Source: a virus (lineage: Duplodnaviria > Caudoviricetes). From it: DNA of 64,000 bases. Below the pieces are notes generated by a model. The model had not been told where the DNA came from. It was given only the letters and a program-made list of their open reading frames with translations, and ran no database searches. Where the stretch lies: IMG/VR virus record IMGVR_UViG_3300031994_000004; one strand, 5' to 3'. A program made the position numbers and the translations under genes. Shown in pieces: positions 1-36,084 of this stretch. Each line of letters starts with the position of its first letter. Within the stretch, counting starts at the first letter, position 1.

Positions 1-2111
1 ATGGCGCGTGGAGGTATTGTGTAAACAACTTAAAAATAGACGATGTAAAGACGTTTATTGCCATAAGAAATAATGCTATTTCTAGTATAATGGATGACTT
101 GTTTACTGGAAGAAAGCCTGCACCGATTGCGTATTCCGGTGGCATTACTGTCATTACAGCGGACTCTAGTGCTGACAAGGAAAAAGTATATTATGATAAC
201 GTAAACCCACCGTATCGTTTAATGTATTGGGATGAACAACTTGGCGTGTGGTCATACGTTGGAAACTATAACAAGAACCATTCATTAAGTCTTGCTGGTA
301 TTGTCGGTGCTGAACCTTACTATGGTGGGCTCACATCGCTGAATGCAGATGCAGACGCGGATAAGTCTAAAATCTACCTGTTGAGTGTAAACTACAAGTT
401 CGCCGTATATGACTCGGATAGTTCTTCGTGGGTGTACTACGATGCCATCTTCACACTTGAAAAGATGGTAAAATCGCTTTCAAAAATTTTCGGATTTGAG
501 GTGTTCAATGGTAGTGATGCCGAACTTGCAAATGCGTCTTATAACGGCGACAAGAGCAAGATTTATCTTTCTTTGAAAGACAGCAACCCGTACGAGTTGT
601 GGAAGTATGGAAGGTTTGTATTTTGGTCGCCTTACTTTAATTCGTGGCAGGTGTCCGATGTTGGTATAAGCGATGTAATCGCTAATTACTACAAGATAAC
701 TGGAGCAGAGCCGTACTATAAGGGCGGTTTGACCGTCTTGAAGGCTGACCCGGATGCAGATACGTCAAAGACCTACTTTGTTATAACTCCTGGCGGAAAC
801 TACCTGAAGAAAATGGTGTACGACTCCGTCAATTCAACGTGGGTATATACCGACAAGATAAACCTTGATGTGAACGGCTCGTTGCTTTCCATCATTTCTG
901 GAATCGTAGGAGCGAAGGCTTACTTTGGCTCGTTACTTACACTTTCTTCGGATACTACCGCAGATACAACGAAGGTGTATTTCTGCGCCCTCGCCTCGTC
1001 TGCCGACTACCTCAAGATATTCGTATATGATGCTGCCACATCTTCCTGGACTTATGGCGGGAGTATTTCGGATTTTATAAACAAGAGCGACGAATCGTTC
1101 AACATTGAAAATGAAAAGGTGCGTGCATACCTTGATAATACTGCGTATGACAACACCGACTACACGTACACCGAGGTGCTGAAGTACGCCGCCAACAACT
1201 ATGACAAGCCGAACGGATTTTCTGTAAATTGGGAATTTGCTGGGACTTGCGACTCGTTCAACGTGAAGGTTTCGCTGACTGGCGACTTTGCCGATGGAAA
1301 GACGTACACATACAATGTTGTGAATACTGCTAGAAGTTTTGTTGTTAAAAATCTTGACCCGTCAAAGGTGGCTGGTGTAAAGGTTTCTTCCGTCACTGGC
1401 GGTGTAGAATCGGTTGTAACTTCAAAGGCTATTCCCTGCGAAGGACGAGTGCGAATGCTCGATGTAGATGGCATCCGTAATGTGCGAGATATTGGTGGAT
1501 GGGACTGCGGGAACGGAAAGCGAATCAAGTACGGCAAGTTTTTCCGTGGTAGTGCGATTGACGAGAGTGGCAGCACAATTACATCTGCGGGAAAGGCCGT
1601 ACTTTACAATTTGAACGGAGTGCGTGCAGAGATTGACTTGCGCTCCACCGCTTCGCCCACCACCTCCGACATTGGTGCATCTTGTGTAAAGTATTCTATC
1701 ACTGGCTATTCTTACATCAATGGTTTCAACAATACGAGCGATGCGTACAACGTATTTAGCCGAGTGTTTACCGAAATCGCAAGCGGACATCCTATCTATA
1801 TGCACTGCTCCGGCGGATGTGACCGCACGGCTTTTTATGTGTGTATGCTTGAAGGATTACTCGGTGTTTCGGAAAATGACATTACTAAAGACTTTGAACT
1901 ATCAAGTTTTATGGATAAGGCTTATTCCAACAACTACCGCAGATACCGCAGTATGGGTGTTGAATACTCTAATAGAGACTGGCTTGGCCTTATCACACTC
2001 ATCAAGGGCTTAACAGGTGGCACTTGGGTCGAAAAGTTTGATACATATTTTACTAGCCTCGGATTTACGCAGTCCGATATTGATGCGGTGCGTAATGCCA
2101 TGTTGGAGTAA
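1..2111 (+). CDS. Repeat-containing protein with C-terminal tyrosine/dual-specificity phosphatase domain (5'-partial)
   Basis: Frame is open from nt 3 (GAWRYCVNN...), so it starts left of the window. NVRDIGG, FRGS, IDLR and HCSGGCDRT (CX5R P-loop) motifs of the Y_phosphatase3/IphP type. About five ~65-aa N-terminal repeats. GC visibly higher than the rest of the window. Confidence 0.8.
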   Translation, partial: GAWRYCVNNLKIDDVKTFIAIRNNAISSIMDDLFTGRKPAPIAYSGGITVITADSSADKEKVYYDNVNPPYRLMYWDEQLGVWSYVGNYNKNHSLSLAGIVGAEPYYGGLTSLNADADADKSKIYLLSVNYKFAVYDSDSSSWVYYDAIFTLEKMVKSLSKIFGFEVFNGSDAELANASYNGDKSKIYLSLKDSNPYELWKYGRFVFWSPYFNSWQVSDVGISDVIANYYKITGAEPYYKGGLTVLKADPDADTSKTYFVITPGGNYLKKMVYDSVNSTWVYTDKINLDVNGSLLSIISGIVGAKAYFGSLLTLSSDTTADTTKVYFCALASSADYLKIFVYDAATSSWTYGGSISDFINKSDESFNIENEKVRAYLDNTAYDNTDYTYTEVLKYAANNYDKPNGFSVNWEFAGTCDSFNVKVSLTGDFADGKTYTYNVVNTARSFVVKNLDPSKVAGVKVSSVTGGVESVVTSKAIPCEGRVRMLDVDGIRNVRDIGGWDCGNGKRIKYGKFFRGSAIDESGSTITSAGKAVLYNLNGVRAEIDLRSTASPTTSDIGASCVKYSITGYSYINGFNNTSDAYNVFSRVFTEIASGHPIYMHCSGGCDRTAFYVCMLEGLLGVSENDITKDFELSSFMDKAYSNNYRRYRSMGVEYSNRDWLGLITLIKGLTGGTWVEKFDTYFTSLGFTQSDIDAVRNAMLE

Positions 2112-12700: not shown

Positions 12701-13598
12701 ATTAGCCAGTGGTAACTCATTTGCTTTTGGTAATGGTTGTACTGCTGAAATTAATTCTTTTGCTATGGGTTCTAATTGTTCAGCTATTACTGGTGGTTTT
12801 GCTTATGGAACTGATTGTACCGCCGCATCAAATAGTATTGCTATGGGTGTAGGTATGGTATCAAAAGCAAAACAAATTTCTTTAGGTTACTATGGTTTAA
12901 TACAATCAGGAGCAACTAATAATGTAGTTTTCCATGTTGGTTATGGGTTAGGTCCAGAAGACGAAAATAGAAGAGATGTTTTTAGAGTAACAAGTGCAGG
13001 TGCTATTGCTAGTTTTAATGCCGGTTATGCTAATCCACAACCAGCTGAAGTTCTATTAACTAATGAATTTTTCCAAGCACCTAGACAATTTGGTAGAAGA
13101 ATACCAATGCGTTTATCACAAGGTCTTGAAATGGGAAATGGTTTGAATCTTAATATCAAAACTTATCCTGCTGCTTTTACTGCTACACATAATATAATCT
13201 TTGGTGATGATGCCGAAGGATATTGTTTTAATATGTGGATTCCTGATACAACTGCATCACAAGAATTTACATTAACAAAAGCTGCTTCTATACATCGTGG
13301 TGTATATAGATTATCTATCGGTGTTGATAAAAATTATTCTATTATATTTAAAAACTTTGAACCAAATACAGGTAGTCAATCAAACCATACTGTAATTAAA
13401 ACGGGTACAAATGTTACTGGTTCTTGGCCTAATGGTGGTACTAATGCTACTTATGATTATTCATCATTTTTCTTGGATAAAGAACAAGCAACATCAAATA
13501 CATACTTTAATTTTCCAGCTATACCTTGCGATGATGTTATAACATTTATTGTTGATGGTGCAACAAAACAATTTATTATGATTAAAGGGCACAGCTAA
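9765..13598 (+). CDS. Long tail fibre / adhesin with YadA-head-like repeats
   Basis: 1277 aa; 13-14-aa repeats (SLAQGSNNTAENQ, AFAFGDYCYAHGAN, SLALGYNSTAER) typical of trimeric beta-roll heads; LSAGQGI repeats. Confidence 0.7.
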   Translation: MADEVKNGLSADSSRIASKWNRNTVADGSWLQKYTLNPLTARDYYLASAIDALGSATDDTTSALSAAISSVSSIHDEYINYLSATISGDISGYINYVSGSVTALSGDLKTSADELLRLIDEEHGRADDAETKINNRLDNMEAATDVINVYGSWDDFTDNSGDLFTLSGITDNDIIKILNDKNSYPNEMFPGVQPVASGHQTYFRWINSAIPKSAHIKPLDPTSGYWNFIGYVDPYYTTTEIDEYLNELSATVSDNYLSANENAVSAGKNIQIIYDENKPKITINTKDDVEFNNVSSKNVSSTNVTALTAQGNSANFTTGNFTNLTSTNATATNIQGTQANYTNFSGSYLTGVNGNNTVTTTISGLINSASEIGTKLNISDFNNWSGSTASLFSGTSRSAKSANSATNAYSSTTAYAAQNVGNVASADLIGSAQSGKAAYNVLSAATFTANDTTAKLSAGFKLIAGQGVDIQHAAGSTDITITAEGTTYSEGDYISTANKTIAVTRDLITSANAGSAASAWVNSHSAGLNIQGGYGISTGTNENGNLVINIRNNGCDYAAYGLALGKNSSAIGAANGPNAFAFGDYCYAHGANAFAAGCHSTAGKFAVAMGWNNVATGDYSLALGYNSTAERAYTVAIGRGLSGTAQTTLGKFNESVNGAQLIVGDGQDQGHDVTARKNILVIKDDKVSAADFSAGNVSLSSLTNFSAFGNGITNTATFNLSAVKLSAGQGIGFKNDTNGVLSISAEGRAYTGENYVKVDNTTKKISLSGDLVNSAQSGQSAYNWITTKSATLSAGQGIKFTSAATNTLGIGLDTDNFSASNISALNFYIPSANDGARSVSEISSNSTGVSAHIVEEMVNKVVTASWRSIIDAANAANKYVPLTAEKCTIGDDNNAYDNSLAQGSNNTAENQSLAQGCLNEAHSNSLAQGSNNSANSCSFAQGYYNSAASYSLAFGTHSQAYQGGFAFSPYLWGTQTKPSLASGNSFAFGNGCTAEINSFAMGSNCSAITGGFAYGTDCTAASNSIAMGVGMVSKAKQISLGYYGLIQSGATNNVVFHVGYGLGPEDENRRDVFRVTSAGAIASFNAGYANPQPAEVLLTNEFFQAPRQFGRRIPMRLSQGLEMGNGLNLNIKTYPAAFTATHNIIFGDDAEGYCFNMWIPDTTASQEFTLTKAASIHRGVYRLSIGVDKNYSIIFKNFEPNTGSQSNHTVIKTGTNVTGSWPNGGTNATYDYSSFFLDKEQATSNTYFNFPAIPCDDVITFIVDGATKQFIMIKGHS

Positions 13599-14439
13599 TC
13601 AAATTACCACTGCAAGGACTAAAAGTTAATTCACTAAATTTAACTTGTCCGTTAATTGAATACAAATCAACACGAACAAATTTAAAATCCGAAGCCAATT
13701 TCTTAACGATTGGCTTCATTTTTTTATATGTTTCTTTTTCTTTACTTAATAACTTGAATCGCATTGGTTTAATTCCAATGTACATATCAGTATTTTCACA
13801 ACTAGAATCTGTAAAACAAATAAATTCTTCCAAGTTCTTACCTAATTTCCTACTTAATTGAATATATTTGATTTCACCATTCTCACACCAAAATTGCCAA
13901 TCTAACAATTTACCTAAATCTGGTTGTACAATAATTCCACGATTTATATTTTCATACTGCCATTCAAATCCACAAATATAAGCATAATTCAAATTTAACC
14001 ATTCATTCAACTTTGAAATTAGGTAACTTGGGTCATTTCCTTTTTTCTTTTCAAATCGCATATTCCAACCAGACCCGTGATTACATCTAAAAAACCATTT
14101 ACCATCTGGCAAATGATTAAACATATCCAAAGTGAATTCTGTGTTTATGAAAATATAAGCTGGTTGAATAAGTATATTTTTTAGTTCAGTGTTTAATGCG
14201 ATTTGATTATGAGCAGCTATTTTATCTGCCCATATTGCTTTTCTTTCGTCTTTATCGTAAATCTTACACCAGTTTATTCTATCTACAATGTTCTGTGGAT
14301 TTTCCAGATTCACGCTTGGAACATTCTTTTTAGTCCACTCAATCGCATACTGCATTTTATCTTCGGCAAATCTACAGTTGTTATAATCTGTATGATGTAA
14401 TCCTTTGAGCCATTCTTGTCTGTATTCTTCTTCGGTCAT
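13582..14439 (-). CDS. TupA-like ATP-grasp protein
   Basis: ADK, CNHGSGWN and FKFVRVDLY..GQVKFSELTFSPCSG motifs. Confidence 0.8.
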   Translation of the reverse strand: MTEEEYRQEWLKGLHHTDYNNCRFAEDKMQYAIEWTKKNVPSVNLENPQNIVDRINWCKIYDKDERKAIWADKIAAHNQIALNTELKNILIQPAYIFINTEFTLDMFNHLPDGKWFFRCNHGSGWNMRFEKKKGNDPSYLISKLNEWLNLNYAYICGFEWQYENINRGIIVQPDLGKLLDWQFWCENGEIKYIQLSRKLGKNLEEFICFTDSSCENTDMYIGIKPMRFKLLSKEKETYKKMKPIVKKLASDFKFVRVDLYSINGQVKFSELTFSPCSGNLISCAL

Positions 14440-14702
14440 GTAAAATCCTTTTCAGATTTATATAATCTATAATTCAGATTTCTATATTTGAATTCTAAAG
14501 ATAACATGTTAAAAATTTGTCTTAATTTTTTAATACTATTTATAGGTGTACTCATAAAAGGTTGTGTATAAACAATATAATTATTTTTATTTTGTTCAAT
14601 AAATCCAACTATTTCAAATTTGAAATTTTCATACAAAATTTCATTCTTTTTTATTTTAAAATTAAATTCATGACACAAGTTTAACAATTTATCGTATCTC
14701 AT
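14436..14702 (-). CDS. DF-tail family small protein
   Basis: Ends YKSEKDFT; coupled tandem array. Confidence 0.65.
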   Translation of the reverse strand: MRYDKLLNLCHEFNFKIKKNEILYENFKFEIVGFIEQNKNNYIVYTQPFMSTPINSIKKLRQIFNMLSLEFKYRNLNYRLYKSEKDFT

Positions 14703-15019
14703 ACAAAATCCTGAGATATATTATTTAGTATAATCTCTTGGTTATATTCTTTTATACCATGTTCAACAATTTGTTCTAATAATTTGTGAGTATATATTGA
14801 AGAAGAAGTATTTTCAGTTAAAAAGTATAACAAATTAACATCTATATTTTTTCTAATTATTATATCTATTATATGATTAACATTTTCAATAGCAAATCTA
14901 CTGTTTATATCTTTGTTACAGTTACATATTTTATTTACCAAATTTGTTAAAACTATACGATACTTATTAAAAATTATGATTTTATCTTTCCTATAATAAT
15001 CTTTATATTTTTCAAGCAT
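14699..15019 (-). CDS. DF-tail family small protein
   Basis: Ends NNISQDFV. Confidence 0.65.
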   Translation of the reverse strand: MLEKYKDYYRKDKIIIFNKYRIVLTNLVNKICNCNKDINSRFAIENVNHIIDIIIRKNIDVNLLYFLTENTSSSIYTHKLLEQIVEHGIKEYNQEIILNNISQDFV

Positions 15020-15329
15020 CAAAGTCTCCTTCCATCTTTTTAAGTCTATCCAACATTTTTCGGTATTTTATTTTTGGCAAAAAATCAGTATCCATTACTT
15101 CACACGCTTCTTCGTAAGTTTCTATTATTAGAACTTTAGTGAAGAATCTAAGCGAAATCCAAGTTAGTTTAGTTTCAAATACAGTACAATTACAAATAGC
15201 AATGGCTGTATTCAGTGTAGGTTCGTATATTTTTGAAGGAAGATAAAAATAATTGTTGCTGTAATCTATACCCATTTCAACATTTAAATTATACTTTTCC
15301 TTAAATTTCTTAAATTCTTCAGGTGTCAT
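15012..15329 (-). CDS. DF-tail family small protein
   Basis: Ends KKMEGDFDA. Confidence 0.7.
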   Translation of the reverse strand: MTPEEFKKFKEKYNLNVEMGIDYSNNYFYLPSKIYEPTLNTAIAICNCTVFETKLTWISLRFFTKVLIIETYEEACEVMDTDFLPKIKYRKMLDRLKKMEGDFDA

Positions 15330-15610
15330 TAGAAATCTTTATCCAAACTTTTAATTCGTTCTCGTTGTATATTTTCTTTAAGTTGTTTGATTTTGTTTGA
15401 CAAGCGTTCTTGTAAATCTTCTTCTTTAATGTGATTAAGAGTTTCACCTGTAAATGGATATAACCACAAAATACTTCTGTTAATCTTTTTTGTCAATAGG
15501 ATGTTCCCTATTGCTACTTTATTTTTGAAAACTAAAATATATCCATTATTACAAGGTGTGCGACCTAAACCATATTCGCAGACAATTCTATCAAAATCGG
15601 TATATGTCAT
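15329..15610 (-). CDS. DF-tail family small protein
   Basis: Ends KSLDKDF. Confidence 0.7.
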   Translation of the reverse strand: MTYTDFDRIVCEYGLGRTPCNNGYILVFKNKVAIGNILLTKKINRSILWLYPFTGETLNHIKEEDLQERLSNKIKQLKENIQRERIKSLDKDF

Positions 15611-15876
15611 TTAAAATCTTCCTTAATGTCTTCTAGTTTGTTTTCCAGTTGAGTTTTCTTATATCTTTCAATGAAGTGCTCAAGTTTCAAAGTGAAAGCT
15701 ATAACATTATCATAAGCATCACATGCACTGAAAAATACAGTGCAACTTTTCATATCATTATTCATCCAATAATTTGCTACATTATTTTGTCTATAATAGA
15801 TACTTCCGTTGTCACACACAAAGCCATATTCATTACAAATTTCTATCATTTTTTCAATAGTCAAAGACAAATTCAT
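15607..15876 (-). CDS. DF-tail family small protein
   Basis: Ends EDIKEDFK. Confidence 0.7.
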   Translation of the reverse strand: MNLSLTIEKMIEICNEYGFVCDNGSIYYRQNNVANYWMNNDMKSCTVFFSACDAYDNVIAFTLKLEHFIERYKKTQLENKLEDIKEDFK

Positions 15877-16184
15877 TGGAAATCCTTTTCTATGTTGTTG
15901 AGTTTACGCTTCATTTTAAATGCTTTTTCTTTTTGCATAAGTTCATTTACATAGAAATCATAATCTTCTTTTGTGAGATTAAGTGCGATTTGTTTGGGTA
16001 CAACTATTCTGGCGTGAGGAGCATCTTCTTTATCAACAAATTCAGTTTCGCACCAACCAGCACTTATCTGGTTCATAATTTCGTCAATCCACAAAACATA
16101 TTCGTGTGGTGTGTACTTTAGCCAGGAACTAACATTCAAATCTCGCCAAGTCTTTCTTGCCATTTCATAATCATATACTTCCAT
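15873..16184 (-). CDS. DF-tail family small protein
   Basis: Starts MEVYDYE at a TAATG overlap; ends NNIEKDFQ. Confidence 0.7.
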   Translation of the reverse strand: MEVYDYEMARKTWRDLNVSSWLKYTPHEYVLWIDEIMNQISAGWCETEFVDKEDAPHARIVVPKQIALNLTKEDYDFYVNELMQKEKAFKMKRKLNNIEKDFQ

Positions 16185-16429
16185 TAGAAATCCTCGCCCA
16201 TTTTCTGTAATCGTTTTCTTTCTTTGAAATACTTGTTGTATGCTTCGCACCATCTGTCAAACAATGCTCGGCTGGCTAAATCTTCATTTTCGTACATATC
16301 AAGATAATACCCGCCCTGGTGCATCTGGTGGTATAAGTAGTACCTCTCACAAAGTTCTAAAATTGTTTTTCCAGATACAACAGCGTCAATACAATTTCTG
16401 CTATCAGTAAAAATCTTTAGACTATACAT
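16184..16429 (-). CDS. DF-tail family small protein
   Basis: Ends QKMGEDF. Confidence 0.7.
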   Translation of the reverse strand: MYSLKIFTDSRNCIDAVVSGKTILELCERYYLYHQMHQGGYYLDMYENEDLASRALFDRWCEAYNKYFKERKRLQKMGEDF

Positions 16430-16695
16430 TAGAAATCTTCCTTTAATTTTTTGAGTTTATCTTGCTCTTGTTTGTATCTTAAAATTGCTCTGTAATTCCT
16501 ACCATTCTCTCTTAATTCTTCAATCGTAAATTCTTTTGCAGGAATACCAGCCGTAACGGCTTGAAGTTCTCTAGTTCTTAAATCGGAAGTCCAATATGCT
16601 AATGAACCTTCATCATACCAACTGTAGATGGTTTCATCTGAATCCATAGAGTTATTAGTTTCTATCCAAAATTGTTTATATTCCTCAAAAGTCAT
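16429..16695 (-). CDS. DF-tail family small protein
   Basis: Starts MTFEEYKQ; ends KKLKEDF. Confidence 0.7.
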   Translation of the reverse strand: MTFEEYKQFWIETNNSMDSDETIYSWYDEGSLAYWTSDLRTRELQAVTAGIPAKEFTIEELRENGRNYRAILRYKQEQDKLKKLKEDF

Positions 16696-16876
16696 TTTCA
16701 ATGTCCATAAGTTTAAGTTTTTCTTTAATCTCTTTAATTTCTTGCTCAATTTCAATTCGTTCTTCAGTTTTCATAGTTTCTCTAGCCATAGCACCAGTTA
16801 AGAAATCTCTGTATTCCAATCTGAGATTGAGTGTTTCCAATCGTATTTGTAAAAGCTGTGCTAAAAAACTATCCAT
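16685..16876 (-). CDS. DF-tail family small protein
   Basis: Ends MDIENDF. Confidence 0.7.
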   Translation of the reverse strand: MDSFLAQLLQIRLETLNLRLEYRDFLTGAMARETMKTEERIEIEQEIKEIKEKLKLMDIENDF

Positions 16877-17091
16877 TAAAAATCCTGTTCAATACTATGT
16901 CTTTTAAGTTGTTCTTTAATTTGTTTTAATTCTTTCTCAAGTTCTATTTGCTTTTCTGCTGGTAATTTGTTTTTACCTTTTTGTTTAGCCGACTGGGCAA
17001 GTACAAATTCAATATGTCGGATTCTATCTTCATAAAGCCATTTGATAAAATCGTAACTATCCATACTTGGACTTGTATCTACTTCAAACAT
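16876..17091 (-). CDS. DF-tail family small protein
   Basis: Ends HSIEQDF. Confidence 0.7.
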   Translation of the reverse strand: MFEVDTSPSMDSYDFIKWLYEDRIRHIEFVLAQSAKQKGKNKLPAEKQIELEKELKQIKEQLKRHSIEQDF

Positions 17092-17357
17092 TAAAAATCC
17101 TCTTGTAATTTATCCAATCTTCGTTTTTGTTCGTAAAATTTTCTATTTAATGTAGAATTAGAATGTAGCAAATTTCGTGCTTCTTCAGCAGTCATATCTT
17201 TCCAGGCTTTTGTATGCTTAGTCCAAACATATTCTTTAAGTTGTTCATTGTACTTGAAAGTTGAAGGTACTAAATCCATAGATGCTAAAATTTGTTCGTA
17301 TGAATAACCTTCAGTACCATTTGGAAAGAAAATTTTAATATGTTCACTATAAGTCAT
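17091..17357 (-). CDS. DF-tail family small protein
   Basis: Ends DKLQEDF. Confidence 0.7.
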   Translation of the reverse strand: MTYSEHIKIFFPNGTEGYSYEQILASMDLVPSTFKYNEQLKEYVWTKHTKAWKDMTAEEARNLLHSNSTLNRKFYEQKRRLDKLQEDF

Positions 17358-17563
17358 TAGAAATCCTTTTCCATTTTAATCAGTTTCAATTTCATTTCAA
17401 TTTCTTTCTTGCGGAGTTCCATTTCGTGAAAATATGGTTTTGCTCGTTCTGATTGTTTTAAGCAGGACATATTCATATCAAGAAAGAAAAGTTCTTCTTC
17501 AAGTTCATCTTCAAGAGTTTGTGGTTGTTCAACCCAAGTTATTTGTGGTCCTTTGTCTTCCAT
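17357..17563 (-). CDS. DF-tail family small protein
   Basis: Ends IKMEKDF. Confidence 0.7.
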   Translation of the reverse strand: MEDKGPQITWVEQPQTLEDELEEELFFLDMNMSCLKQSERAKPYFHEMELRKKEIEMKLKLIKMEKDF

Positions 17564-17739
17564 TAGAAATCCTGCTCCATTTCGTATTTTCTAAGTTCTT
17601 CTTTTTCTTGCTTAATTTGAAGTTCAATTTTAGATTTTTCTTCTGGAGAAAATGTTAGTGATAACTGTAAATACAATCTTCTAATCTCCAGTTTACAGCA
17701 TCGTATCATAAATTCTCTAATTTCTTCATTAGAAGTCAT
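17563..17739 (-). CDS. DF-tail family small protein (58 aa, not in the ORF track)
   Basis: Manual translation MTSNEEIREFMIRCCKLEIRRLYLQ...KYEMEQDF; fills the gap in the array. Confidence 0.7.
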   Translation of the reverse strand: MTSNEEIREFMIRCCKLEIRRLYLQLSLTFSPEEKSKIELQIKQEKEELRKYEMEQDF

Positions 17740-17926
17740 TATTTATTTTCGTTAGTTTAAGTTGAAGTTTCAAATGTTTAATTTCTGCCTCAATAGTTGC
17801 AACTTCGGCAGTTGTCAATTTTTCATCTTCATATACTGGGTATTTACTGCGGTCTAATTTTAGTCGCAAATCTCTTATTCTATTTTCAAGTAAGCCAATT
17901 AAAAATTCATTATATTCATCTTCCAT
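17729..17926 (-). CDS. DF-tail family small protein
   Basis: Starts MEDEYNE; ends TKINNDF. Confidence 0.7.
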   Translation of the reverse strand: MEDEYNEFLIGLLENRIRDLRLKLDRSKYPVYEDEKLTTAEVATIEAEIKHLKLQLKLTKINNDF

Positions 17927-17994
17927 ATAATAAAAATAAAAAAAGACCACATATTTGACAATATGCGGTCATAATAAAGTGTTTAAGTTAGAAC

Positions 17995-18513
17995 TTAGAA
18001 TTCGCTCTTGAACATATAGAGCATAAAGACACCAGGAATTTCATCTGGAACTTGCTCAATATGTGCCCAAGTATAGATAGTAACTTCGCGGGCCTGGTTC
18101 AAATAATTTCTGTTAAATTCATTCGCACCACTAACGAGCTTCAATGTTTCAGCAAACTGTTCCTGCAACTTCTTCATATCGTTCTGGTATTCAACGATTT
18201 GTTCAGTTATCGTAGGATTCTTATTTGCGTCTAACTTGATTTCGCCTTGTTCATCACGATCTGCGTATTTGACTACCAATTCATTTGCCTTCTGCTTGTA
18301 TTCAGCAAACTTTGGGTCTGTATCTGGGTTATACATTCCAGCAGCAATATCCTGATAGACTTTTTCAAGTGACTTAATGGTCTTCAATGCTGCGTATGTC
18401 AATTCAGCATCAATACCATTCCCACTAATGTACTTATTCAAAATTTCAAAGTACTGCTTGATTTCCAACTGAGTAAGTTGAACCTTCTTTTCTACAATGT
18501 TGTTCTTATGCAT
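17995..18513 (-). CDS. Hypothetical protein
   Basis: 172-aa ORF, helical. Confidence 0.7.
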   Translation of the reverse strand: MHKNNIVEKKVQLTQLEIKQYFEILNKYISGNGIDAELTYAALKTIKSLEKVYQDIAAGMYNPDTDPKFAEYKQKANELVVKYADRDEQGEIKLDANKNPTITEQIVEYQNDMKKLQEQFAETLKLVSGANEFNRNYLNQAREVTIYTWAHIEQVPDEIPGVFMLYMFKSEF

Positions 18514-18514
18514 C

Positions 18515-19411
18515 TTATTTTTCCTTCTTAATATATGTTATATCCAAAATTCCGCTACAAGGAGTAAATGTAGCTTCACCAAAATAAACTTTACCATTCA
18601 TATAGTACATATCGCATCTGACAAACTTAAATTGTTTTGCGATTTTTTCCACATAAGGTATCATTTGTTTTAGAATTTCTTTTTGTTTACTATTTAGATT
18701 AGTTAGGTCGCAATCACCGCCGATAAACCAATCGTTCTGATTACCTTCTTTATCTACAAATGCGATATACTCTTCAAAGTTCTTACCGCATTTTCTAGTT
18801 AAACCAACACCTTCTATCTCGCCATTCTCGCACCAAAAGCTCCAATCCAAAGGCTTGTAAACCATAACTGGCTGAATGATATAACCTGGCTTTATCCACT
18901 TATACTGCATTTCCAAACCTGAAATGTAAGCATAGTTTGTTTGTAACCAGCTATTCATATTATCCATAACCATTTTATGACTGGTTTGGTCTGGGTGATA
19001 CAACAAATTCCAACCACTACCGTGATTACACTTGATTATGTAAGTCCATTCCTTTGGTCTGGTATCAAGTTCAAACAAATAGGATTCATCAAATGTTTCA
19101 CCATAAGTTTTTACTTCGTATGGCAAACAAATCTGATGAAGATACATTTTTTCTAATTCTTCGTAAACACCAACTTTATCACTCCAGCGAGTTTTCAAGT
19201 TAATGTAAGCAATATCTGGGTGTTCTATATCTTCTAGTTTCCAATGACAAATTCTATCTACGATGTTCTGTGGGTTATCTGGGTTAATGTTTGGATGTGC
19301 TTTCTTTATCCACTGACGAGCGAAAGCTCCCTTGTCGGGAGCATATCGGCAATCATCATATTCACTTTTTATTTCGCCACGAAGCCACTTTTCTTTGTAT
19401 TCGTTTATCAT
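18515..19411 (-). CDS. TupA-like ATP-grasp protein (paralog of 13582..14439)
   Basis: NPQNIVDRI, KCNHGSGWN, FKFVRCDMY..GKVYFGEATFTPCSG. Confidence 0.8.
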   Translation of the reverse strand: MINEYKEKWLRGEIKSEYDDCRYAPDKGAFARQWIKKAHPNINPDNPQNIVDRICHWKLEDIEHPDIAYINLKTRWSDKVGVYEELEKMYLHQICLPYEVKTYGETFDESYLFELDTRPKEWTYIIKCNHGSGWNLLYHPDQTSHKMVMDNMNSWLQTNYAYISGLEMQYKWIKPGYIIQPVMVYKPLDWSFWCENGEIEGVGLTRKCGKNFEEYIAFVDKEGNQNDWFIGGDCDLTNLNSKQKEILKQMIPYVEKIAKQFKFVRCDMYYMNGKVYFGEATFTPCSGILDITYIKKEK

Positions 19412-29284: not shown

Positions 29285-29632
29285 ATGATGAAAGGATTCC
29301 CTAGAAGAAGTTATTATGGTAAGAGCCACGTTACCCCAACTAGAGGTGGTAATGGAGGTACTGCTCCTGCTACAAAGAAGCAAATAAATTCTTTTGAAGA
29401 AGAATATCAAAAGTTTATTGCTGATTTGAAGGCAAAGAAAGAAGCAGAAGCAAAGAAGGAAGAAACACCAGTTCTCACAGAAGAACCAAAAGTAGAAGCT
29501 GAAGTTATTCCTGAAACTGTAACAACAGTAGCTGAAGATGCTCCAGTTCTCAATGAAGAAGCTCAGCCAAAGAAAACAAAGAAGAAAAAGTCAGAACCTG
29601 TAGCCGAACCAACTATTGATGGTTTGGACTAA
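29285..29632 (+). CDS. FExEYQxFI-motif protein with acidic/Pro-rich tail
   Basis: FEEEYQKFIADL. Confidence 0.6.
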   Translation: MMKGFPRRSYYGKSHVTPTRGGNGGTAPATKKQINSFEEEYQKFIADLKAKKEAEAKKEETPVLTEEPKVEAEVIPETVTTVAEDAPVLNEEAQPKKTKKKKSEPVAEPTIDGLD

Positions 29633-29715
29633 GTTGTTTTTTAATTTGTTTATCTTTTTACAGTGCTCATTTCGGTGGGCACTGTTTTGTATAAATAAAC
29701 CATTGAGGTGATTTT

Positions 29716-31179
29716 ATGAAGAAATACAGTGTATTGATGTATAATTTCAATGATTACGAAATTATGCGAGAACCAAAAGAAGTTGACCCTGAATGTGAAT
29801 ACATTTATGTGACGGACAATCCAAAATACCAGAACGAAACTAAAGTTTGGAAGGTCATTGTAGATAAAGATTTGGAAGGGCTTTCAGCTTTTGATAAATG
29901 TTATAGTGTCCGTTTTAACCTATTTAAATATGCTACAACTCCTGTCTGTATCTATTTGGATGGGTCAGTACAAATTTATAAGAAACTAACTAAATTATAT
30001 AATGATTTCACTAATAGTGGTTGTGAATTAGGTTTGATAATTCACCCACTTAGATTTAGTATATCAAAAGAATATGACATTTGGGAACAGTGTAGAAATT
30101 ATCCTACTGAACAGAAACAGAAATGTTTAAAAGCCATGACTGCTATGGGATATGATTTCAATTACAAAGGTCTTTATGAAATGACTGTTAGAATTGTAAA
30201 GAATACTGACAGAAATAAAATGATAGACCAGGCCTGTTTTGATTTGCTGAAGAAATTAGGAACATCTGACAAAATAGAACGATTAGACCAAACTGCATAT
30301 TCATTTTTAATGAACCACTTGTATAATGATACAAATGTTTTCCCAATGAGTGAGCAGATTATTCATTCGGAATATATGAAATGGTGTTTACATAAGAAAC
30401 CAAATATAAATCCTATACTTGCTAATACTGATAAGCGTAGTGAAGGGTTCTTATTTGATAAATTGGTAAAATTGTACAAAATCTTTGATACAGATTTTAA
30501 GAAATTACCAGTACCAACAGTCAAAAGAGATGCTATTATTAGTATGACTAGCTGGAAGAAACGCATCCACACAGTTCCATACACAATTTATAGCTTATTG
30601 AAAAACTGCCCAGGTTATAAGATAGTTTTGACATTATGTACTGAAGAATTTCCAAATAAAGAAAAAGATTTACCAAAAGATTTGTTAGATATGGCTAACA
30701 ATGATTATGTTGAAATACTTTGGGTTAAAGATAATACTTATACATTTAAGAAAATGTTACCAACAATGAAGAAATACCCAAATGTTCCAATTATAACTGC
30801 CGATGATGGAGTAAGGTATTACAGAAACTATGCTGAAGAATTATATCAAATTTGGTTAGACAATCCTGAGAAGATTATTTCGTATAATAACTGGAAACGA
30901 ATGGGAATAACATTTGGTGGTGGCGGAAGTGGTATTTTGTTCCCACCTAACTGTTTCAAAGAGTATAATTTGACACCAAAGATTATAGAAACAAAACACG
31001 ATGATTTTTATTATGGTTGTTTAGCAAAGAAGGCAGGAATTGACTGGTACATAATAAATGATGTTCCAAGAGATTCTAATTTTGAAAGTATTGACTCAGT
31101 ATATTCTGTATCAAATAAATTCTATATAAACGAAAATGATTTATGTAAAGTTATTTTAGACGAATTGGGGATGAAATGA
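29716..31179 (+). CDS. Fused double glycosyltransferase-like protein (DUF616-like plus GT-A)
   Basis: N-terminal YVTD, YLDGS, HPLR and RLDQ; C-terminal MTSWKKR, KKMLP, ITADD and HDD; terminator plus TATAAATA at 29690. Confidence 0.65.
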   Translation: MKKYSVLMYNFNDYEIMREPKEVDPECEYIYVTDNPKYQNETKVWKVIVDKDLEGLSAFDKCYSVRFNLFKYATTPVCIYLDGSVQIYKKLTKLYNDFTNSGCELGLIIHPLRFSISKEYDIWEQCRNYPTEQKQKCLKAMTAMGYDFNYKGLYEMTVRIVKNTDRNKMIDQACFDLLKKLGTSDKIERLDQTAYSFLMNHLYNDTNVFPMSEQIIHSEYMKWCLHKKPNINPILANTDKRSEGFLFDKLVKLYKIFDTDFKKLPVPTVKRDAIISMTSWKKRIHTVPYTIYSLLKNCPGYKIVLTLCTEEFPNKEKDLPKDLLDMANNDYVEILWVKDNTYTFKKMLPTMKKYPNVPIITADDGVRYYRNYAEELYQIWLDNPEKIISYNNWKRMGITFGGGGSGILFPPNCFKEYNLTPKIIETKHDDFYYGCLAKKAGIDWYIINDVPRDSNFESIDSVYSVSNKFYINENDLCKVILDELGMK

Positions 31180-32399: not shown

Positions 32400-34403
32400 A
32401 GAAGAATTTAAGAAATTAGAAGCCGCTGAAATAGAAAAAATTTCTAAAGCTTGTCCTAATTATCAAGATTCAGATTCACCTGATGCTTTAAGTGCGAATT
32501 CAAGACTTGCTTATTTTTATTCTCGTATTGTAGATAAATTATTAAAAGAAAACGAAGAATTAAGACAGACAGTTGAACTTAAAAATAAATTGGATGGACT
32601 ATTTAAATGAAAGTAGCACTAATTAGTTATGAACCAGACAATTATGACCCTGATGAACTTGATGATATGCAAGTTGGAGATTTTGACCCAGCCGATGTTC
32701 ATATTTACGATTTGAACAAAGTAGATGAAAAGATGATTGACTATATTGTTTCAATGGCTTGTTCCTGTACCGAACATGGGTTAGGCGTATTAGTAAGGAA
32801 AGTAGAATAATGAAGTATATACAAACTGAAAATAAGTATTGGAGAGTATGGGATAAAGACCCTGAATGGATGCTAGTAAATAAGGCTGGAAGAGTAGTAA
32901 AAGTTGATGAGTGCTACACTAAAGAAATGCTTGAAAAAGAAATTGAATATAACATTAGAGTCTTTCGTTATCTAGCAAAACATAATGAATCAGCTAAATG
33001 GTTACAAGTTAATTCACCTGAAGAAATCCCAGATGATTTATTCCAAGTAGTTCCTTATGACGAACAGAAATGTATAGAGCAAGGTATTATAGAATTTAAG
33101 ACTGAAGAAGAATATAACAAAATCTTTTATCCAAGTGGGAAGGTGATTTAATGAAGTATTTAGTAGGTCATTATTATAATGGTAGCTTTGGTACTGGAAC
33201 TACTGAAGCATATAAGGTTTATGAGGCAAGAAATAAGCACGATGCTGAACGAATGTACCAATATGAATTTGGTTGTTTGGGTGGTGTAATTTGTTCTGTG
33301 TTTAGAAATAAATGTTTGTTCTTGAATAAAGAAATTAAAATAAATTCAAGAGAATTATGTAATATAATTCTAAGGAGTTTGAACAAACAATGAAAAAATT
33401 TTTAGTCAGTTTAACATTTAGATACATTGAAAGTAATCGTGAAACTTATTGTATTTTAGATGAAGAAAAATATAATGAATACAAGCAATTCTTTTGTGTA
33501 TATTGTAAGCCGTTAATTGAAAGTGGTGAATCTTTTGATGAAGAAGGTGAATATGAAGGTACGCCAGGAATTACGATTGAAGAAATTGCTAGAAGTCTTG
33601 AAAACGCAGTAGAAGTAACACCTGAAATAGAAAAAGCATTAAATTTGCTTCGTTTTATTTTACCTTCACAAACTGATGCTTTAGAAAATATAAAACAAGA
33701 AATTTTGGATGAGAAGTACTTGGAAGAATGAAATTTAAATTAGTAGAATACCCTTACGGCAGAGAGATTGGTTTTAACCAAGATACCGTTTGGTTCATAC
33801 AAGGAACAGACGATAATAAGACTTGGTATAATTATATTTGGAGTTATATGGATGGTTCACCTTCTATCATACTGGAAAAAGAAAGGGTATCAAGGACTTG
33901 TCCTCCAATGTCAGCTTTTTTGACAAATGAAGAAGCAAATGAAGTATTTGATAAAATAACTAATTATTACAGAGAACAAACAAAAGAAAATAAAATTCGT
34001 ACATTAAGAGAAATTGAGATTTAACTAAATGAGATACCACGAATTATTAGGATTGTTAGACGATACATTCGCCAAGTACAGAAAGGAAGAAGCAAGTCCT
34101 GATTCCAAATGGACTCCTTATTGCTATTATAAGAATTTGGAAGATACAAAAAACGATTATTCAGTATATGTTGGTTCTAAAGGACTTAGAGAAGAACTAA
34201 TTGCTATCCTTGAACGCTGTGAAAACGAAGAAAATTTTAAGTTCACAGATAAACAATGGGAAGCATTAGCATTAACACTTGAACCAGCTAACACACAACA
34301 TAACGATGATGGTGCTTGGACAGATATAATGTTCAGAGCAAAATATAATTTCATTGAAAGTGTATTTGCTTTTCTAAACACACAGCATGTTATTTTACAT
34401 TAA
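32392..34403 (+). CDS. Run of seven translationally coupled hypothetical ORFs (32392-32610, 32607-32810, 32810-33151, 33151-33393, 33390-33731, 33728-34024, 34029-34403)
   Basis: ATGA/TAATG overlaps; no recognisable motifs. Confidence 0.6.
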
Positions 34404-34802: not shown

Positions 34803-36084
34803 GCAATTACAGAAAGACATTTTGGGTAGCTTGGAGTTATCCTATAAAGGGTTTAGAAAGAACTGCCCACGAAATTGCTGATAAGTATCAAGTTGATTGT
34901 CACATTGACTGTGATACAATTAAGACAGGTTGGTTCAGTAAGAAATATGAATACAACATTGTTTACAGTGGCGATAAAGATGCTGTAGAAAAGGCATACG
35001 ATACCATTTATGAGTGTGCTGAAGATTTTCAAGCAAGACTTAATTCATTATAAGGTAAATTATATGACTAACACTGAATACGAAAAACAGAAAGAAGAAC
35101 TAGAAAAAGAATTTGCTTTGAAAAAAGGTAAATTGGCTGAAGAATACCTTAAAGAACACGGTATATTAGACGAAAATGGAAGACCAAAAATGTATACTTC
35201 ATTTGTAGATTGGCCTTCTGCTGATTTATATAATTTAAGAGAAAAATTATTGACACTTGTAAATGCCATAGAAAAACAAATTGGAATTAAAAATCATAAA
35301 GATTGGTAAACTATCACTAGAGAAGAATTTTTAGATAAAGAATGTGAATAATGTAAAGGAAAAACAAATGAATGAAATTTATGTTTTAATTTATCAACCA
35401 CATACTACTATCTATCAGTTTTATCATACTGAAGAAGAAGCACAGAAAACATTAGAAGCATATAAAAAGAATCAGCCAAATTTATATGCGGTTGTAGAAA
35501 AATGGGATATGGTTAAGTTTGCTAATTGGATAGCCAATGAATTAAGTATTATAGGTCAATCTGGTTTTCATATAGGATAAAATATGAACGAAAAACAAAT
35601 ACTAAAACTTATTAAAGAAAAACTTGATTACTATTATCTAAAAGCTGACTATTCACATCCAACAGTCGGGCATGTGTTCATTACTGAAGGTTTACACATA
35701 ATTGTAAATGACGATAAAGAACAGTGTAAGTGGGTTGAATTTAACTCCTTTGATAAAGGACCAAAAATCCGTAAAGTATGTAAGGACGAAAAGTCATTAA
35801 CAAAAGAACTAGACAAGGCATTGTTAGAATTTTACAAAATCAAGCACGAAAGAATAAATGAAGAAAACAAATCTAAACCTGTTCGCAGTTCATTCATAAA
35901 TAAACAGTTATACCGATTGTATTTGTTCGCATTTGACAGTTGGGGCAAACGATTGAAGAAAGGCAAACGAGCCGGTATTTGGAAAACGATAATGGATGAC
36001 GTTTGGGCTGACATTTATGACAGAACTGACATAGATGAACGCTGGAAGATTTACAAAGAATTAACTCCAAAGAAAGGTAAATAA
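34799..36084 (+). CDS. Run of four hypothetical ORFs (34799-35053, 35064-35309, 35368-35580, 35584-36084)
   Basis: Closely packed ORFs with SD-like sequences. Confidence 0.55.

What the first reader, a model, noticed from the sequence alone, without database searches (positions are those of the whole stretch)
14436..17926. Array of 14 tandem small genes that all end in a helix plus xxDF tail
Seen: otherwise dissimilar 58-107-aa proteins end in a Lys/Glu-rich helix followed, in almost all cases, by [ILM]-x-x-D-F at or within 2 aa of the C-terminus. This includes a 58-aa gene missing from the ORF track (17563-17739). The array sits between two TupA-like paralogs. Inference: a shared docking tag for one hub protein with variable N-terminal cargo. 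T4 gp43, gp55 and gp33 use C-terminal LDF motifs to bind the gp45 clamp, and SSB tails end in acidic-Phe; both are analogies only.
Basis: partly seen in the sequence, partly recalled or inferred. Interest (0 to 1): 0.8.

Follow-up and report, generated by a model that had tools for sequence, protein, structure and literature searches.

The report
Phage small-protein family with DF-ending helix
The 14 small genes are one cluster of an undescribed family of about 120-130 small proteins, a third of this rumen giant phage's genes. All end in the same helix closing with Asp-Phe, which most likely docks them onto one still unknown partner.

Summary
All 14 minus-strand genes end in DF, followed by 0-2 further residues. 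13 of 14 also have Lys at -16 and [ILM] at -5.

Genome-wide, 129 of about 412 ORFs of this 210-kb record end this way, against about 4.5 expected. That is 21.6% of the DNA.

Selection acts on the protein. Synonymous codons at the conserved positions follow the genome background. An HMM built without DF finds 100 tails, and all of them are followed by DF. Tails on genes with no coupled downstream gene still keep it. One nucleotide overlay does exist: the codon before Asp is chosen to give a GGA Shine-Dalgarno core 9 nt before the next ATG.

The heads are not all dissimilar. Five form a helical-hairpin class and four or five an alpha/beta class.

13 of the 14 genes are missing in one relative, and other relatives carry head/tail chimeras, so the array turns over quickly. 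The TupA flanks are incidental.

The phage's own PIP-like clamp tails (LDDFF on the polymerase and two methylases) differ from the DF tail.

The partner is unidentified and no publication was found. This scan had already noted the same family on this genome and on at least five others.

The parts
17729..17926 (-). Array gene 1, 65 aa, helical-hairpin class, ends ...KINNDF
   Evidence: The AlphaFold model has helices 2-28 and 39-64, pLDDT 88.9. Orthologues in relatives carry the tail of gene 1, gene 6 or gene 2.
17563..17739 (-).
   Evidence: Orthologue in L014 at 93% identity with pN below pS.
17357..17563 (-). Array gene 3, 68 aa, hairpin-like, ends ...KMEKDF
   Evidence: Orthologue in L014.
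17091..17357 (-). Array gene 4, 88 aa, ends ...KLQEDF
   Evidence: About 30 orthologue clusters in metagenomes, all ending in DF.
16876..17091 (-). Array gene 5, 71 aa, hairpin class, ends ...SIEQDF
16685..16876 (-). Array gene 6, 63 aa, hairpin class, ends ...DIENDF
   Evidence: Its tail type is found on gene-1 orthologues of relatives.
16429..16695 (-). Array gene 7, 88 aa (start at MTFEEYK), ends ...KLKEDF. The only member with Arg, not Lys, at -16.
   Evidence: Head linked by profile to the 29-member alpha/beta class.
16184..16429 (-). Array gene 8, 81 aa, ends ...KMGEDF
   Evidence: Orthologue in L015.
15873..16187 (-). Array gene 9, 104 aa (start at MEVYDYEM), ends ...IEKDFQ
15607..15876 (-). 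Array gene 10, 89 aa, alpha/beta class, ends ...IKEDFK
   Evidence: AlphaFold: helix 7-16, four strands, helix 56-87, pLDDT 85.6. No convincing fold match, best Z 5.5.
15329..15610 (-). Array gene 11, 93 aa, alpha/beta class, ends ...LDKDF
   Evidence: Orthologues end at DF or carry 3-4 extra residues.
15012..15329 (-). Array gene 12, 105 aa, alpha/beta class, ends ...MEGDFDA
14699..15013 (-). Array gene 13, 104 aa (start at MLEKYKD), ends ...ISQDFV
   Evidence: A relative's protein, P0126, fuses the head of gene 10 to the C-terminal part of this gene.
14436..14702 (-). Array gene 14, 88 aa, alpha/beta class, ends ...SEKDFT. The only array gene also present in relative L002.
   Evidence: 65% identity to L002:11921-12187.
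17945..17970 (-). Terminator-like hairpin (11 bp stem plus T-run) between the 172-aa gene and array gene 1
17995..18513 (-). Conserved 172-aa gene upstream of the array (PHROG 1401, function unknown; ends KSEF, not a family member)
18515..19411 (-). TupA-like ATP-grasp paralogue 1 (298 aa)
   Evidence: PF14305, E 5.4e-18. 41% identical to the other copy.
13582..14439 (-). TupA-like ATP-grasp paralogue 2 (285 aa). Its ATG overlaps the stop of gene 14.
   Evidence: PF14305, E 1.4e-11. Junction read.

Best explanation
The 14 genes are a fast-turning-over tandem cluster of a lineage-specific multigene family of small, probably early, phage proteins. The family has about 120-130 members in this 210-kb record.

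Each protein ends in a long helix with two halves. The proximal half (about -32 to -14) packs on the protein's own variable head. The distal 13-16 residues present one conserved face: Phe-1, [ILM]-5 and Leu-8 form a hydrophobic ridge, flanked by Lys-16, Lys/Arg-9 and Asp-2.

I infer that this face binds one common partner, a host or phage protein not yet identified and not bound in the manner of the phage's own clamp ligands. Many different heads would thereby be brought to the same place.

The DNA of the tail also does a second job. The junction G-GAY-TTY-NN-ATG places a GGA Shine-Dalgarno core 9 nt before the next gene's start. This explains why DF sits 0-2 residues from the stop, and why the genes behave as cassettes that are gained, lost and recombined at or in the tails.

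Shown: the family, the motif, protein-level selection, the RBS overlay, the fold predictions and the turnover. Inferred: exposure of the distal face, binding to one partner and early expression.
For: - Enrichment: 129 of about 412 ORFs end in DF plus 0-2 residues, against 4.5 expected.
- Fixed register: K-16 in 111/129 (Arg in only 2), K/R-9 in 116/129, L-8, [ILM]-5.
- Polar positions carry more information (3.2, 2.8 and 3.8 bits) than the hydrophobic ones (1.7-2.1 bits).
- An HMM built without DF finds 100 significant tails in the six-frame ORF set. 99 are followed directly by DF and one by DF after a 1-residue insertion. None has EF or DY, and none lies more than 4 residues from a stop.
- Codon usage at conserved positions equals the background: Phe TTT 72 / TTC 57, and Leu-8 uses all six codons.
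- Orthologue comparison: dN/dS is 0.34 for heads and 0.20 for tails, and tail pS is not lower than head pS.
- 92 non-family genes with overlapping stop and start never end in DF. About 20 or more members without a coupled downstream gene keep the tail.
- The hydrophobic moments of the distal and proximal halves point about 160 degrees apart.
- AlphaFold predicts one continuous C-terminal helix in both head classes, pLDDT 85.6 and 88.9.
- RBS overlay: the codon at -3 ends in G in 50/60 coupled against 3/11 uncoupled members (p 4e-4). GAG is used 24/30 times against a 9% background.
- An ATG starts exactly 2 nt after the Phe codon in 64/111 members. An SD core precedes 79% of genes that follow a member, against 44-46% of other genes.
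- Turnover: L002 has one DF gene where this genome has 14. L015 has a different gene order. Gene-1 orthologues carry the tails of genes 1, 6 or 2.
- Lineage restriction: only 24 clusters at 50% identity in 1.84 billion proteins match the alpha/beta class. All but one have the DF tail.
- No TATAAATA late promoter lies within 60 nt of any family gene, against 7 non-family genes.
Against: - No partner was identified and no complex could be modelled, because only single-chain prediction was available.
- In the hairpin class the N-terminal helix is as long as the tail helix. There the 'exposed' face may be covered within the same molecule.
- I had no model coordinates, so exposure of the distal half rests on sequence periodicity and on fold-search alignments stopping near residue 74-78 of 89.
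- A family that simply inherited its best-conserved helix by descent would look similar.
- Early expression is inferred only from the lack of late-promoter motifs and from co-orientation with genes 46/47.
- The record is only 56% complete.
Confidence: 0.55

Rival explanations
1. The tail is an oligomerisation helix. Family members pair with themselves or with one another through the distal helix (for example antiparallel, Lys-16 against Asp-2 of the other chain), and no separate hub exists.
For: - Heptad-like spacing of the hydrophobic positions -1, -5, -8 and -12.
- Lys-16, K/R-9 and Asp-2 are each seven residues apart.
- Lys-16 and Asp-2 are of opposite charge and symmetric about -9.
- AlphaFold shows that the tail can pair with another helix in the hairpin class.
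- Invariance across paralogues would also be expected if they form mixed oligomers.
Against: - For pure self-association each paralogue could co-evolve its own interface, so near-invariance across more than 100 paralogues is unexpected.
- In an antiparallel pair centred on -9, the positions facing the hydrophobic residues (-13, -10, -6) are mostly Lys or Glu, and two basic -9 residues would face each other.
- Two heptads are short for a stable coiled coil.
Confidence: 0.18
2. The tail is a signal read by a quality-control or sorting machine, such as a degron for a Clp/Lon/FtsH-type protease or a localisation signal. It would set the lifetime or location of the proteins themselves and would not deliver the heads to a target.
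For: - It is always at the C-terminus (100 of 100).
- Its make-up is basic plus hydrophobic (net +1.35 over the last 16 residues).
- It sits on many probably early proteins that would need clearing later.
- From my own knowledge, some ClpX degrons and adaptor tails are short basic or hydrophobic C-terminal peptides (MuA, the SspB XB tail).
Against: - Known degrons are short and unstructured. Here the element is a confident helix continuous with the fold.
- No ClpP or classic AAA domain was found in this record, although it is only 56% complete.
- The requirement for Lys rather than Arg at -16, far from the chain end, is hard to fit to end recognition.
Confidence: 0.1
3. The tail binds the phage sliding clamp (or the host beta clamp): [ILM]-x-x-D-F read as a degenerate PIP box.
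For: - [ILM] at -5 and Phe at -1 match the h and second aromatic positions of h-x-x-a-a.
- This phage clearly uses C-terminal clamp-type tails: polymerase ...GLDDFFV, two DNA methylases ...GLNDFFE and ...PLTEFFE, and a 130-aa protein ...SILDFLN.
- T4 clamp ligands are C-terminal (PMC2988020).
Against: - T4-family epitopes are short, hydrophobic and acidic, and hang on an unstructured variable linker (PMC2988020). The phage's own four fit that description.
- The DF tail is a basic helix with Asp in place of the first aromatic residue and no second hydrophobic residue after Phe. The extensions after DF are E, K, Q, V, T or ND.
- More than 100 early competitors for the clamp would hinder replication.
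- No clamp gene was found in this partial record.
Confidence: 0.08
4. The motif is a by-product of a nucleotide signal for translational coupling (a Shine-Dalgarno, stop and start junction) and not a protein feature.
For: - The junction is stereotyped: G-GAY-TTY-NN-ATG, with an ATG 2 nt after the Phe codon in 64/111 members.
- The codon at -3 is biased to end in G only when a gene follows.
- A GGA peak lies at -9.
- The short repeat AGGATTTCTAATG recurs at array junctions.
Against: - Phe is TTT or TTC at near-background ratio, and Leu-8, K-16 and K/R-9 use all synonymous codons.
- Conservation extends 16-32 residues upstream with helical periodicity.
- Members without a downstream gene keep DF, and 92 other overlapping junctions lack it.
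- Tail pS is not lower than head pS.
- Tail-coding segments are only 60-71% identical at the DNA level.
Confidence: 0.02
5. The 14 small proteins are substrates of the flanking ATP-grasp enzymes: RiPP-like precursors, or C-terminal ligation targets using the invariant Lys and Asp.
For: - An array of small genes lies between two ATP-grasp genes.
- The tail has an invariant Lys and Asp.
- From my own knowledge, graspetide ligases, RimK and tubulin-tyrosine ligase are ATP-grasp enzymes that act on peptide side chains or C-termini.
Against: - The enzymes are of the TupA type (PF14305) and sit next to a glycosyltransferase-like gene, a context typical of glycan pathways.
- Relatives keep both TupA genes with only one (L002) DF gene between them.
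- More than 100 other family members lie far from any ATP-grasp gene.
Confidence: 0.02

Closest known systems
C-terminal sliding-clamp-binding epitopes of T4-family gp43, gp33 and gp55, and PIP boxes (PMC2988020)
   Same: A short motif at the extreme C-terminus is shared by otherwise different proteins of a T4-like phage. It contains Asp-Phe and a hydrophobic residue a few positions upstream, and it is used to plug several proteins into one hub.
   Different: Clamp epitopes are acidic, unstructured and linked by a flexible spacer, with two adjacent hydrophobic or aromatic residues. This phage has such tails of its own (LDDFF, LNDFF, LTEFF, ILDFL). The DF tail is a basic, 16-32-residue helix with a single Phe, an invariant Lys 15 residues upstream, and more than 100 carriers.
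Viral multigene families with variable target-binding parts and one constant C-terminal adaptor domain, e.g. poxvirus ankyrin/PRANC (F-box-like) proteins (from my own knowledge, not tested here)
   Same: There are dozens of fast-evolving paralogues in tandem arrays. The variable part comes first, and the constant C-terminal element docks onto one cellular machine.
   Different: PRANC is a folded F-box-like domain of a eukaryotic virus with a known partner (Skp1/Cullin-1). Here the element is a single helix, the partner is unknown, and no sequence or fold relation exists.
Acidic C-terminal tails ending in Phe: bacterial SSB (DDDIPF); T7 gp2.5 and gp4 tails (from my own knowledge)
   Same: Asp and Phe at the chain end are used as a docking point for several partners.
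   Different: Those tails are acidic and disordered and need the terminal Phe carboxylate. The DF tail is basic and helical, and 1-4 residues after Phe are tolerated.
Lineage-specific expansions of small proteins in jumbo phages (general kind)
   Same: Tandem arrays, restriction to one phage lineage, rapid gain and loss, and no Pfam or PHROG match.
   Different: The scale (about 31% of ORFs, 21.6% of the DNA) is unusual. So is the fact that the constant part is only a C-terminal helix with three invariant polar or aromatic residues on at least two head folds.

Membership tests
T4-family clamp-binding C-terminal epitope / PIP box | [quoted passage not shown] | tested here: not met
   The last 16 residues carry a mean net charge of +1.35. 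Positions -3, -4, -6, -7 and -9 are mostly Lys, Glu or Gln.
T4-family clamp-binding C-terminal epitope / PIP box | Two adjacent hydrophobic or aromatic residues (h-x-x-a-a; L-D-F-L-F type) | tested here: not met
   The family has D-F, then the stop or E/K/Q/V/T/ND. The phage's polymerase and methylases do have L-x-[DE]-F-F.
T4-family clamp-binding C-terminal epitope / PIP box | Epitope joined to the body by an unstructured, variable linker | tested here: not met
   AlphaFold predicts one continuous helix up to the end (residues 56-87 of 89 and 39-64 of 65). The spacing from K-16 to DF is fixed with no indels.
T4-family clamp-binding C-terminal epitope / PIP box | Physical binding to the sliding clamp | not testable with these tools
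   No multimer prediction was available. No clamp gene was detected in this 56%-complete record, and the Pfam controls did not ring, so that search is uninformative.
SSB-type acidic tail ending in Phe | Disordered acidic tail, with Phe as the very last residue (free carboxylate) | tested here: not met
   The tail is a basic helix. 57 of 129 members have 1-2 residues after Phe, and orthologues have up to 4.
Lineage-specific multigene family of a jumbo phage | Many paralogues in tandem arrays, sharing a register-conserved motif, restricted to one lineage, with rapid gain and loss | tested here: met
   129 ORFs in arrays. Only 24 clusters at 50% identity in 1.84 billion proteins match the alpha/beta class. 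Array content differs between L002, L014, L015 and this genome.
Translational-coupling junction as the sole cause | Nucleotide conservation exceeding amino-acid conservation; motif present only where a gene follows | tested here: not met
   Background codon usage. Tail pS is at least as high as head pS. Uncoupled members keep DF, and 92 other overlapping junctions lack it. A partial overlay (a G-ending codon at -3) is real.
RiPP / graspetide-like precursor array | Precursors specifically linked to a graspetide-type ATP-grasp ligase | tested here: not met
   The ligases match TupA-like PF14305. The TupA pair persists with a single DF gene in L002. Most family members are far from any ATP-grasp gene.
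DksA/TraR-type or any solved helical family | Significant sequence-profile match of the tail to a solved protein | tested here: inconclusive
   Tail profile against PDB sequences: best E 0.85, and a DksA-like chain (2kq9) at E 1.6. Nothing is significant. Fold search of the alpha/beta member: best Z 5.5.

The most novel reading that the evidence does not exclude
The DF helix is a universal handle by which the phage plugs a library of more than 100 different target-binding heads into a single host or phage machine, for instance an unfoldase/protease, RNA polymerase or the replisome. That would be a phage counterpart of the F-box/PRANC adaptor families of eukaryotic viruses. The arrays would evolve as cassettes, because each tail also encodes the ribosome-binding site of the next gene.
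Probability: 0.3. Interest if true: 0.9.

Novelty: new variant of a known kind. Interest (0 to 1): 0.7.

Why it matters
A fifth of this giant phage's DNA is spent on one family whose only constant part is a 16-residue helix face, so whatever that face binds must be central to how the phage takes over its rumen host. Finding the partner would give function to more than a hundred 'hypothetical' genes at once. It could also reveal a modular adaptor strategy not described for phages. The dual use of the tail codons, as protein motif and as ribosome-binding site, is a compact example of overlapping constraints. It also suggests how such arrays expand and shuffle.

Tried and rejected
- Pfam and PHROGs on all 14 array proteins, and Pfam on the 20 longest family members: no significant family.
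- Megablast of the region against 50,697 phage records: no match.
- Foldseek against the PDB and VIA-align wide search with the alpha/beta model: only weak, generic alpha/beta matches of KA1-like arrangement, Z at most 5.5.
- ESM Atlas: only unnamed viral clusters.
- Tail profile against PDB sequences: nothing significant. A DksA-like hit at E 1.6 was judged chance, because it lies in helix 1 and involves no zinc finger.
- Late-promoter scan (TATAAATA): none next to family genes. A search for a shared early promoter was abandoned because few members have real upstream spacers.
- An N-terminal motif shared by the whole family: a loose regex is enriched 32% against 12%, but an HMM recovers only 14 members, so a single common head fold is not shown.
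- Own-genome searches for ClpP, AAA and clamp domains: none found, but the record is 56% complete and the clamp controls did not ring.
- Literature searches found no description of the family.
- Viral-contig scans with gene 4 and with the 172-aa gene added no new loci.

Full report
**What is there**

Between window 14436 and 17926 the minus strand carries 14 tightly packed small ORFs. After correcting four starts (17926, 16695, 16187 and 15013, read from the junctions), they encode 58-105 residues.

- All 14 contain Asp-Phe at the end. Nine stop right after Phe, four have one more residue and one has two.
- 13/14 have I, L or M at -5 (counting Phe as -1).
- 13/14 have Lys at -16, and 13/14 have Lys or Arg at -9.
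- The 58-aa ORF at 17563-17739 is a real gene. Relative L014 has a 54-aa orthologue at 93% identity, with far fewer non-synonymous than synonymous changes.
- The flanking genes are TupA-like ATP-grasp paralogues: PF14305, 41% identical to each other.

**It is not only these 14**

The window lies in a single 210,185-bp virus record that CheckV rates 56% complete. Earlier notes of this scan call it an uncultured T4-like rumen phage. Homologues of the array proteins sit on contigs of 375-409 kb.

- In a simple non-overlapping ORF set of 412 genes, 129 end in DF plus 0-2 residues, against about 4.5 expected from composition.
- The 119 most stringent members cover 45.4 kb, which is 21.6% of the record.
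- Aligned from the C-terminus, the register has no indels. K-16 occurs in 111/129 (Arg in only 2) and K/R-9 in 116/129. L-8, [ILM]-5, D-2 and F-1 follow, and hydrophobic positions recur every 3-4 residues back to about -31.
- An HMM built from positions -34 to -3 only, without DF, finds 100 significant tails in the six-frame ORF set. 99 are followed directly by DF and one by DF after a one-residue insertion. None has EF or DY, and none is internal.

**Protein or nucleotide signal?**

It does not.

- Phe is TTT 72 times and TTC 57 times (background 65:35).
- Asp is GAT 100 times and GAC 29 times.
- Leu-8 uses all six codons.
- K-16 is AAA 68 times and AAG 43 times, which equals the background.
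- K/R-9 uses six different codons.
- Between orthologues, synonymous divergence in the last 16 codons (pS 0.43) is not lower than in the heads (0.34). dN/dS is 0.20 for tails and 0.34 for heads.
- Tail-coding DNA of array members is only 60-71% identical.
- 92 other genes whose stop overlaps the next start never end in DF, and about 20 or more members with no gene close behind keep the tail.

One nucleotide overlay is real, however.

- When a gene follows, the codon before Asp ends in G in 50 of 60 cases. GAG is used 24/30 times against a 9% background. When no gene follows, the figure is 3 of 11 (Fisher p 4e-4).
- This creates (A/G)GGA. An ATG starts exactly 2 nt after the Phe codon in 64 of 111 members.
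- GGA peaks at -9 from those starts. 79% of genes that follow a member have a Shine-Dalgarno core, against 44-46% of other genes.
- The residues after DF are therefore by-products of the overlap. TAATG gives none. NNATGA gives one residue whose codon ends in A, which is why the extensions are E, K, Q, V, T and A.

**Heads**

BLASTP finds few links between heads, but the heads are not all unrelated.

- With the last 34 residues removed, phmmer and profile iteration join 29 of 126 heads into one class. That class includes array genes 7, 10, 12 and 14.
- Genes 10, 11, 12 and 14 align with a shared N-terminal helix and a nearly invariant Tyr.
- AlphaFold on that alignment gives helix, four strands, then a 32-residue C-terminal helix, pLDDT 85.6.
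- Fold searches give only weak generic matches, Z at most 5.5. Their alignments mostly stop near residue 74-78 of 89.
- Array genes 1, 2, 3, 5 and 6 are helical hairpins, 27-41% identical. AlphaFold gives helices 2-28 and 39-64, pLDDT 88.9. Proteins this short are almost confined to this array.
- None of the 20 longest members has a Pfam domain.

**Anatomy of the tail**

- The mean hydrophobic moment of positions -1 to -13 points about 160 degrees away from that of -14 to -32. In 75% of individual members the two differ by 90-270 degrees.
- All conserved distal residues (F-1, [ILM]-5, L-8, position -12, K-16, K/R-9, D-2) fall within a 120-degree arc of a helical wheel (positions, angles).
- The polar residues are more conserved than the hydrophobic ones: 3.2, 2.8 and 3.8 bits against 1.7-2.1 bits.
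- I read this as a two-part helix. The proximal half holds on to the protein's own head. The distal half offers one conserved binding face.
- For a purely structural helix, or for self-association of each paralogue alone, such invariance of polar residues over more than 100 paralogues would not be expected. A single shared partner, or mixed assemblies of family members, explains it.

**Test of the clamp analogy**

- This phage has clear clamp-type C-termini. The 919-aa DNA polymerase ends GLDDFFV. Two DNA methyltransferases (PF01555, phrog_67) end GLNDFFE and PLTEFFE. A 130-aa protein ends SILDFLN.
- These fit the published description of T4-family epitopes: short, hydrophobic and acidic, on a flexible linker (PMC2988020).
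- The DF tail differs in charge, in structure, in register ([ILM]-x-x-D-F against L-x-[DE]-F-[FL]) and in lacking a second hydrophobic residue.
- The clamp is thus not excluded as the partner, but the tail is not a member of that motif class.
- The SSB analogy fails as well. The tail is basic and helical, and 1-4 residues after Phe are tolerated.

**Turnover of this array**

- In relative L002 (TupA 74% identical) the order is: glycosyltransferase-like gene, TupA, one DF gene, the 172-aa gene, one DF gene (the orthologue of gene 14, 65% identical), TupA. The other 13 genes are absent there.
- L014 has genes 1-5 in the same order as here.
- L015 has gene 1 with the tail of gene 2, then 4, a variant of 3, then 6, 7, 8 and 11.
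- Among 26 database orthologues of gene 1, 13 carry the gene-1 tail, 10 a gene-6-type tail and 2 the gene-2 tail.
- Protein P0126 joins the head of gene 10 to the C-terminal part of gene 13.
- So the array grows, shrinks and recombines, often within or at the tails. The stereotyped junction AGGATTTCTAATG recurs at several boundaries.
- The TupA pair is a stable frame into which DF genes were inserted. I see no functional link to it.

**Distribution and expression**

- A full HMM search of 1.84 billion representative proteins with the alpha/beta class found only 24 clusters. All have the DF tail except one that ends in DC.
- All database homologues are unnamed metagenomic proteins.
- No T4-type late promoter (TATAAATA) lies within 60 nt upstream of any family gene, against 7 non-family genes that include large structural ones.
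- The array is co-oriented with the gene 46/47 homologues and follows a strong terminator-like hairpin at 17945-17970. Its own promoter was not identified.

**Verdict**

The interpretation, a shared docking element on varied proteins, is partly supported.

My best explanation, at 0.55, is a lineage-specific, cassette-like multigene family whose distal C-terminal helix face binds one common partner, still unknown. The tail codons also supply the ribosome-binding site of the next gene.

Rivals, in order of likelihood:
1. Mutual oligomerisation through the tail (0.18).
2. A turnover or sorting signal (0.10).
3. Clamp binding (0.08).
4. A pure coupling artefact (0.02).
5. Substrates of the flanking ATP-grasp enzymes (0.02).

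I found no publication describing the family. Earlier notes of this scan had already reported it on this genome and on at least five other genomes, also without a partner.

New here:
- the control against the phage's own clamp-type tails;
- the two-faced helix;
- the Shine-Dalgarno overlay;
- the chimeras and haplotypes of this particular array.

Noticed in passing
G000:C1:35731-38490 (-), 35049-35747 (-), 32934-33671 (-), 29344-29736 (-); outside the window (loci L004): The DNA polymerase (…GLDDFFV), two N6/N4 DNA methyltransferases (…GLNDFFE, …PLTEFFE) and a 130-aa protein (…SILDFLN) all end in PIP-like clamp-type tails. Methylases tethered to the phage clamp would be unusual for a T4-like phage.
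   Followed up: partly
window 17945-17970 (-): A strong terminator-like hairpin (11-bp stem, T-run) sits directly before the first array gene. A weak sigma-70-like site (TTGTCA-17-TATTTT, 17961-17933) overlaps it. The array's promoter is unclear.
   Followed up: partly
window 90-2111 (+): A 673-aa ORF with a C-terminal tyrosine-phosphatase-family domain (PF13350, E 4.9e-24) in a region of higher GC (0.445).
   Followed up: no
L015:3-239 and database proteins P0071, P0090, P0126: Natural chimeras exist in relatives. The gene-1 head carries the tail of gene 2 or gene 6, and the gene-10 head is fused to the C-terminal part of gene 13. This points to unequal recombination within the array.
   Followed up: partly
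whole record G000: CheckV completeness is 56%, and homologues sit on contigs of 375-409 kb. The true genome is probably about 400 kb, and the family correspondingly larger. No clamp, clamp-loader-type AAA or ClpP domain was found in the part held.
   Followed up: partly
L002:10878-11252: Relative L002 has an extra 124-aa DF-tail gene between TupA paralogue 1 and the 172-aa gene. This genome and L001 have none there, which marks another insertion point for family cassettes.
   Followed up: no
window 21691-23370 (-) and neighbours: An SMC/gene-46-like ATPase lies here, with a gene-47 (Mre11-like) neighbour seen in the relatives. Earlier notes of the scan report CGG-N read as Gly (+1 shift) in such genes of this phage. 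This was not examined here.
   Followed up: no
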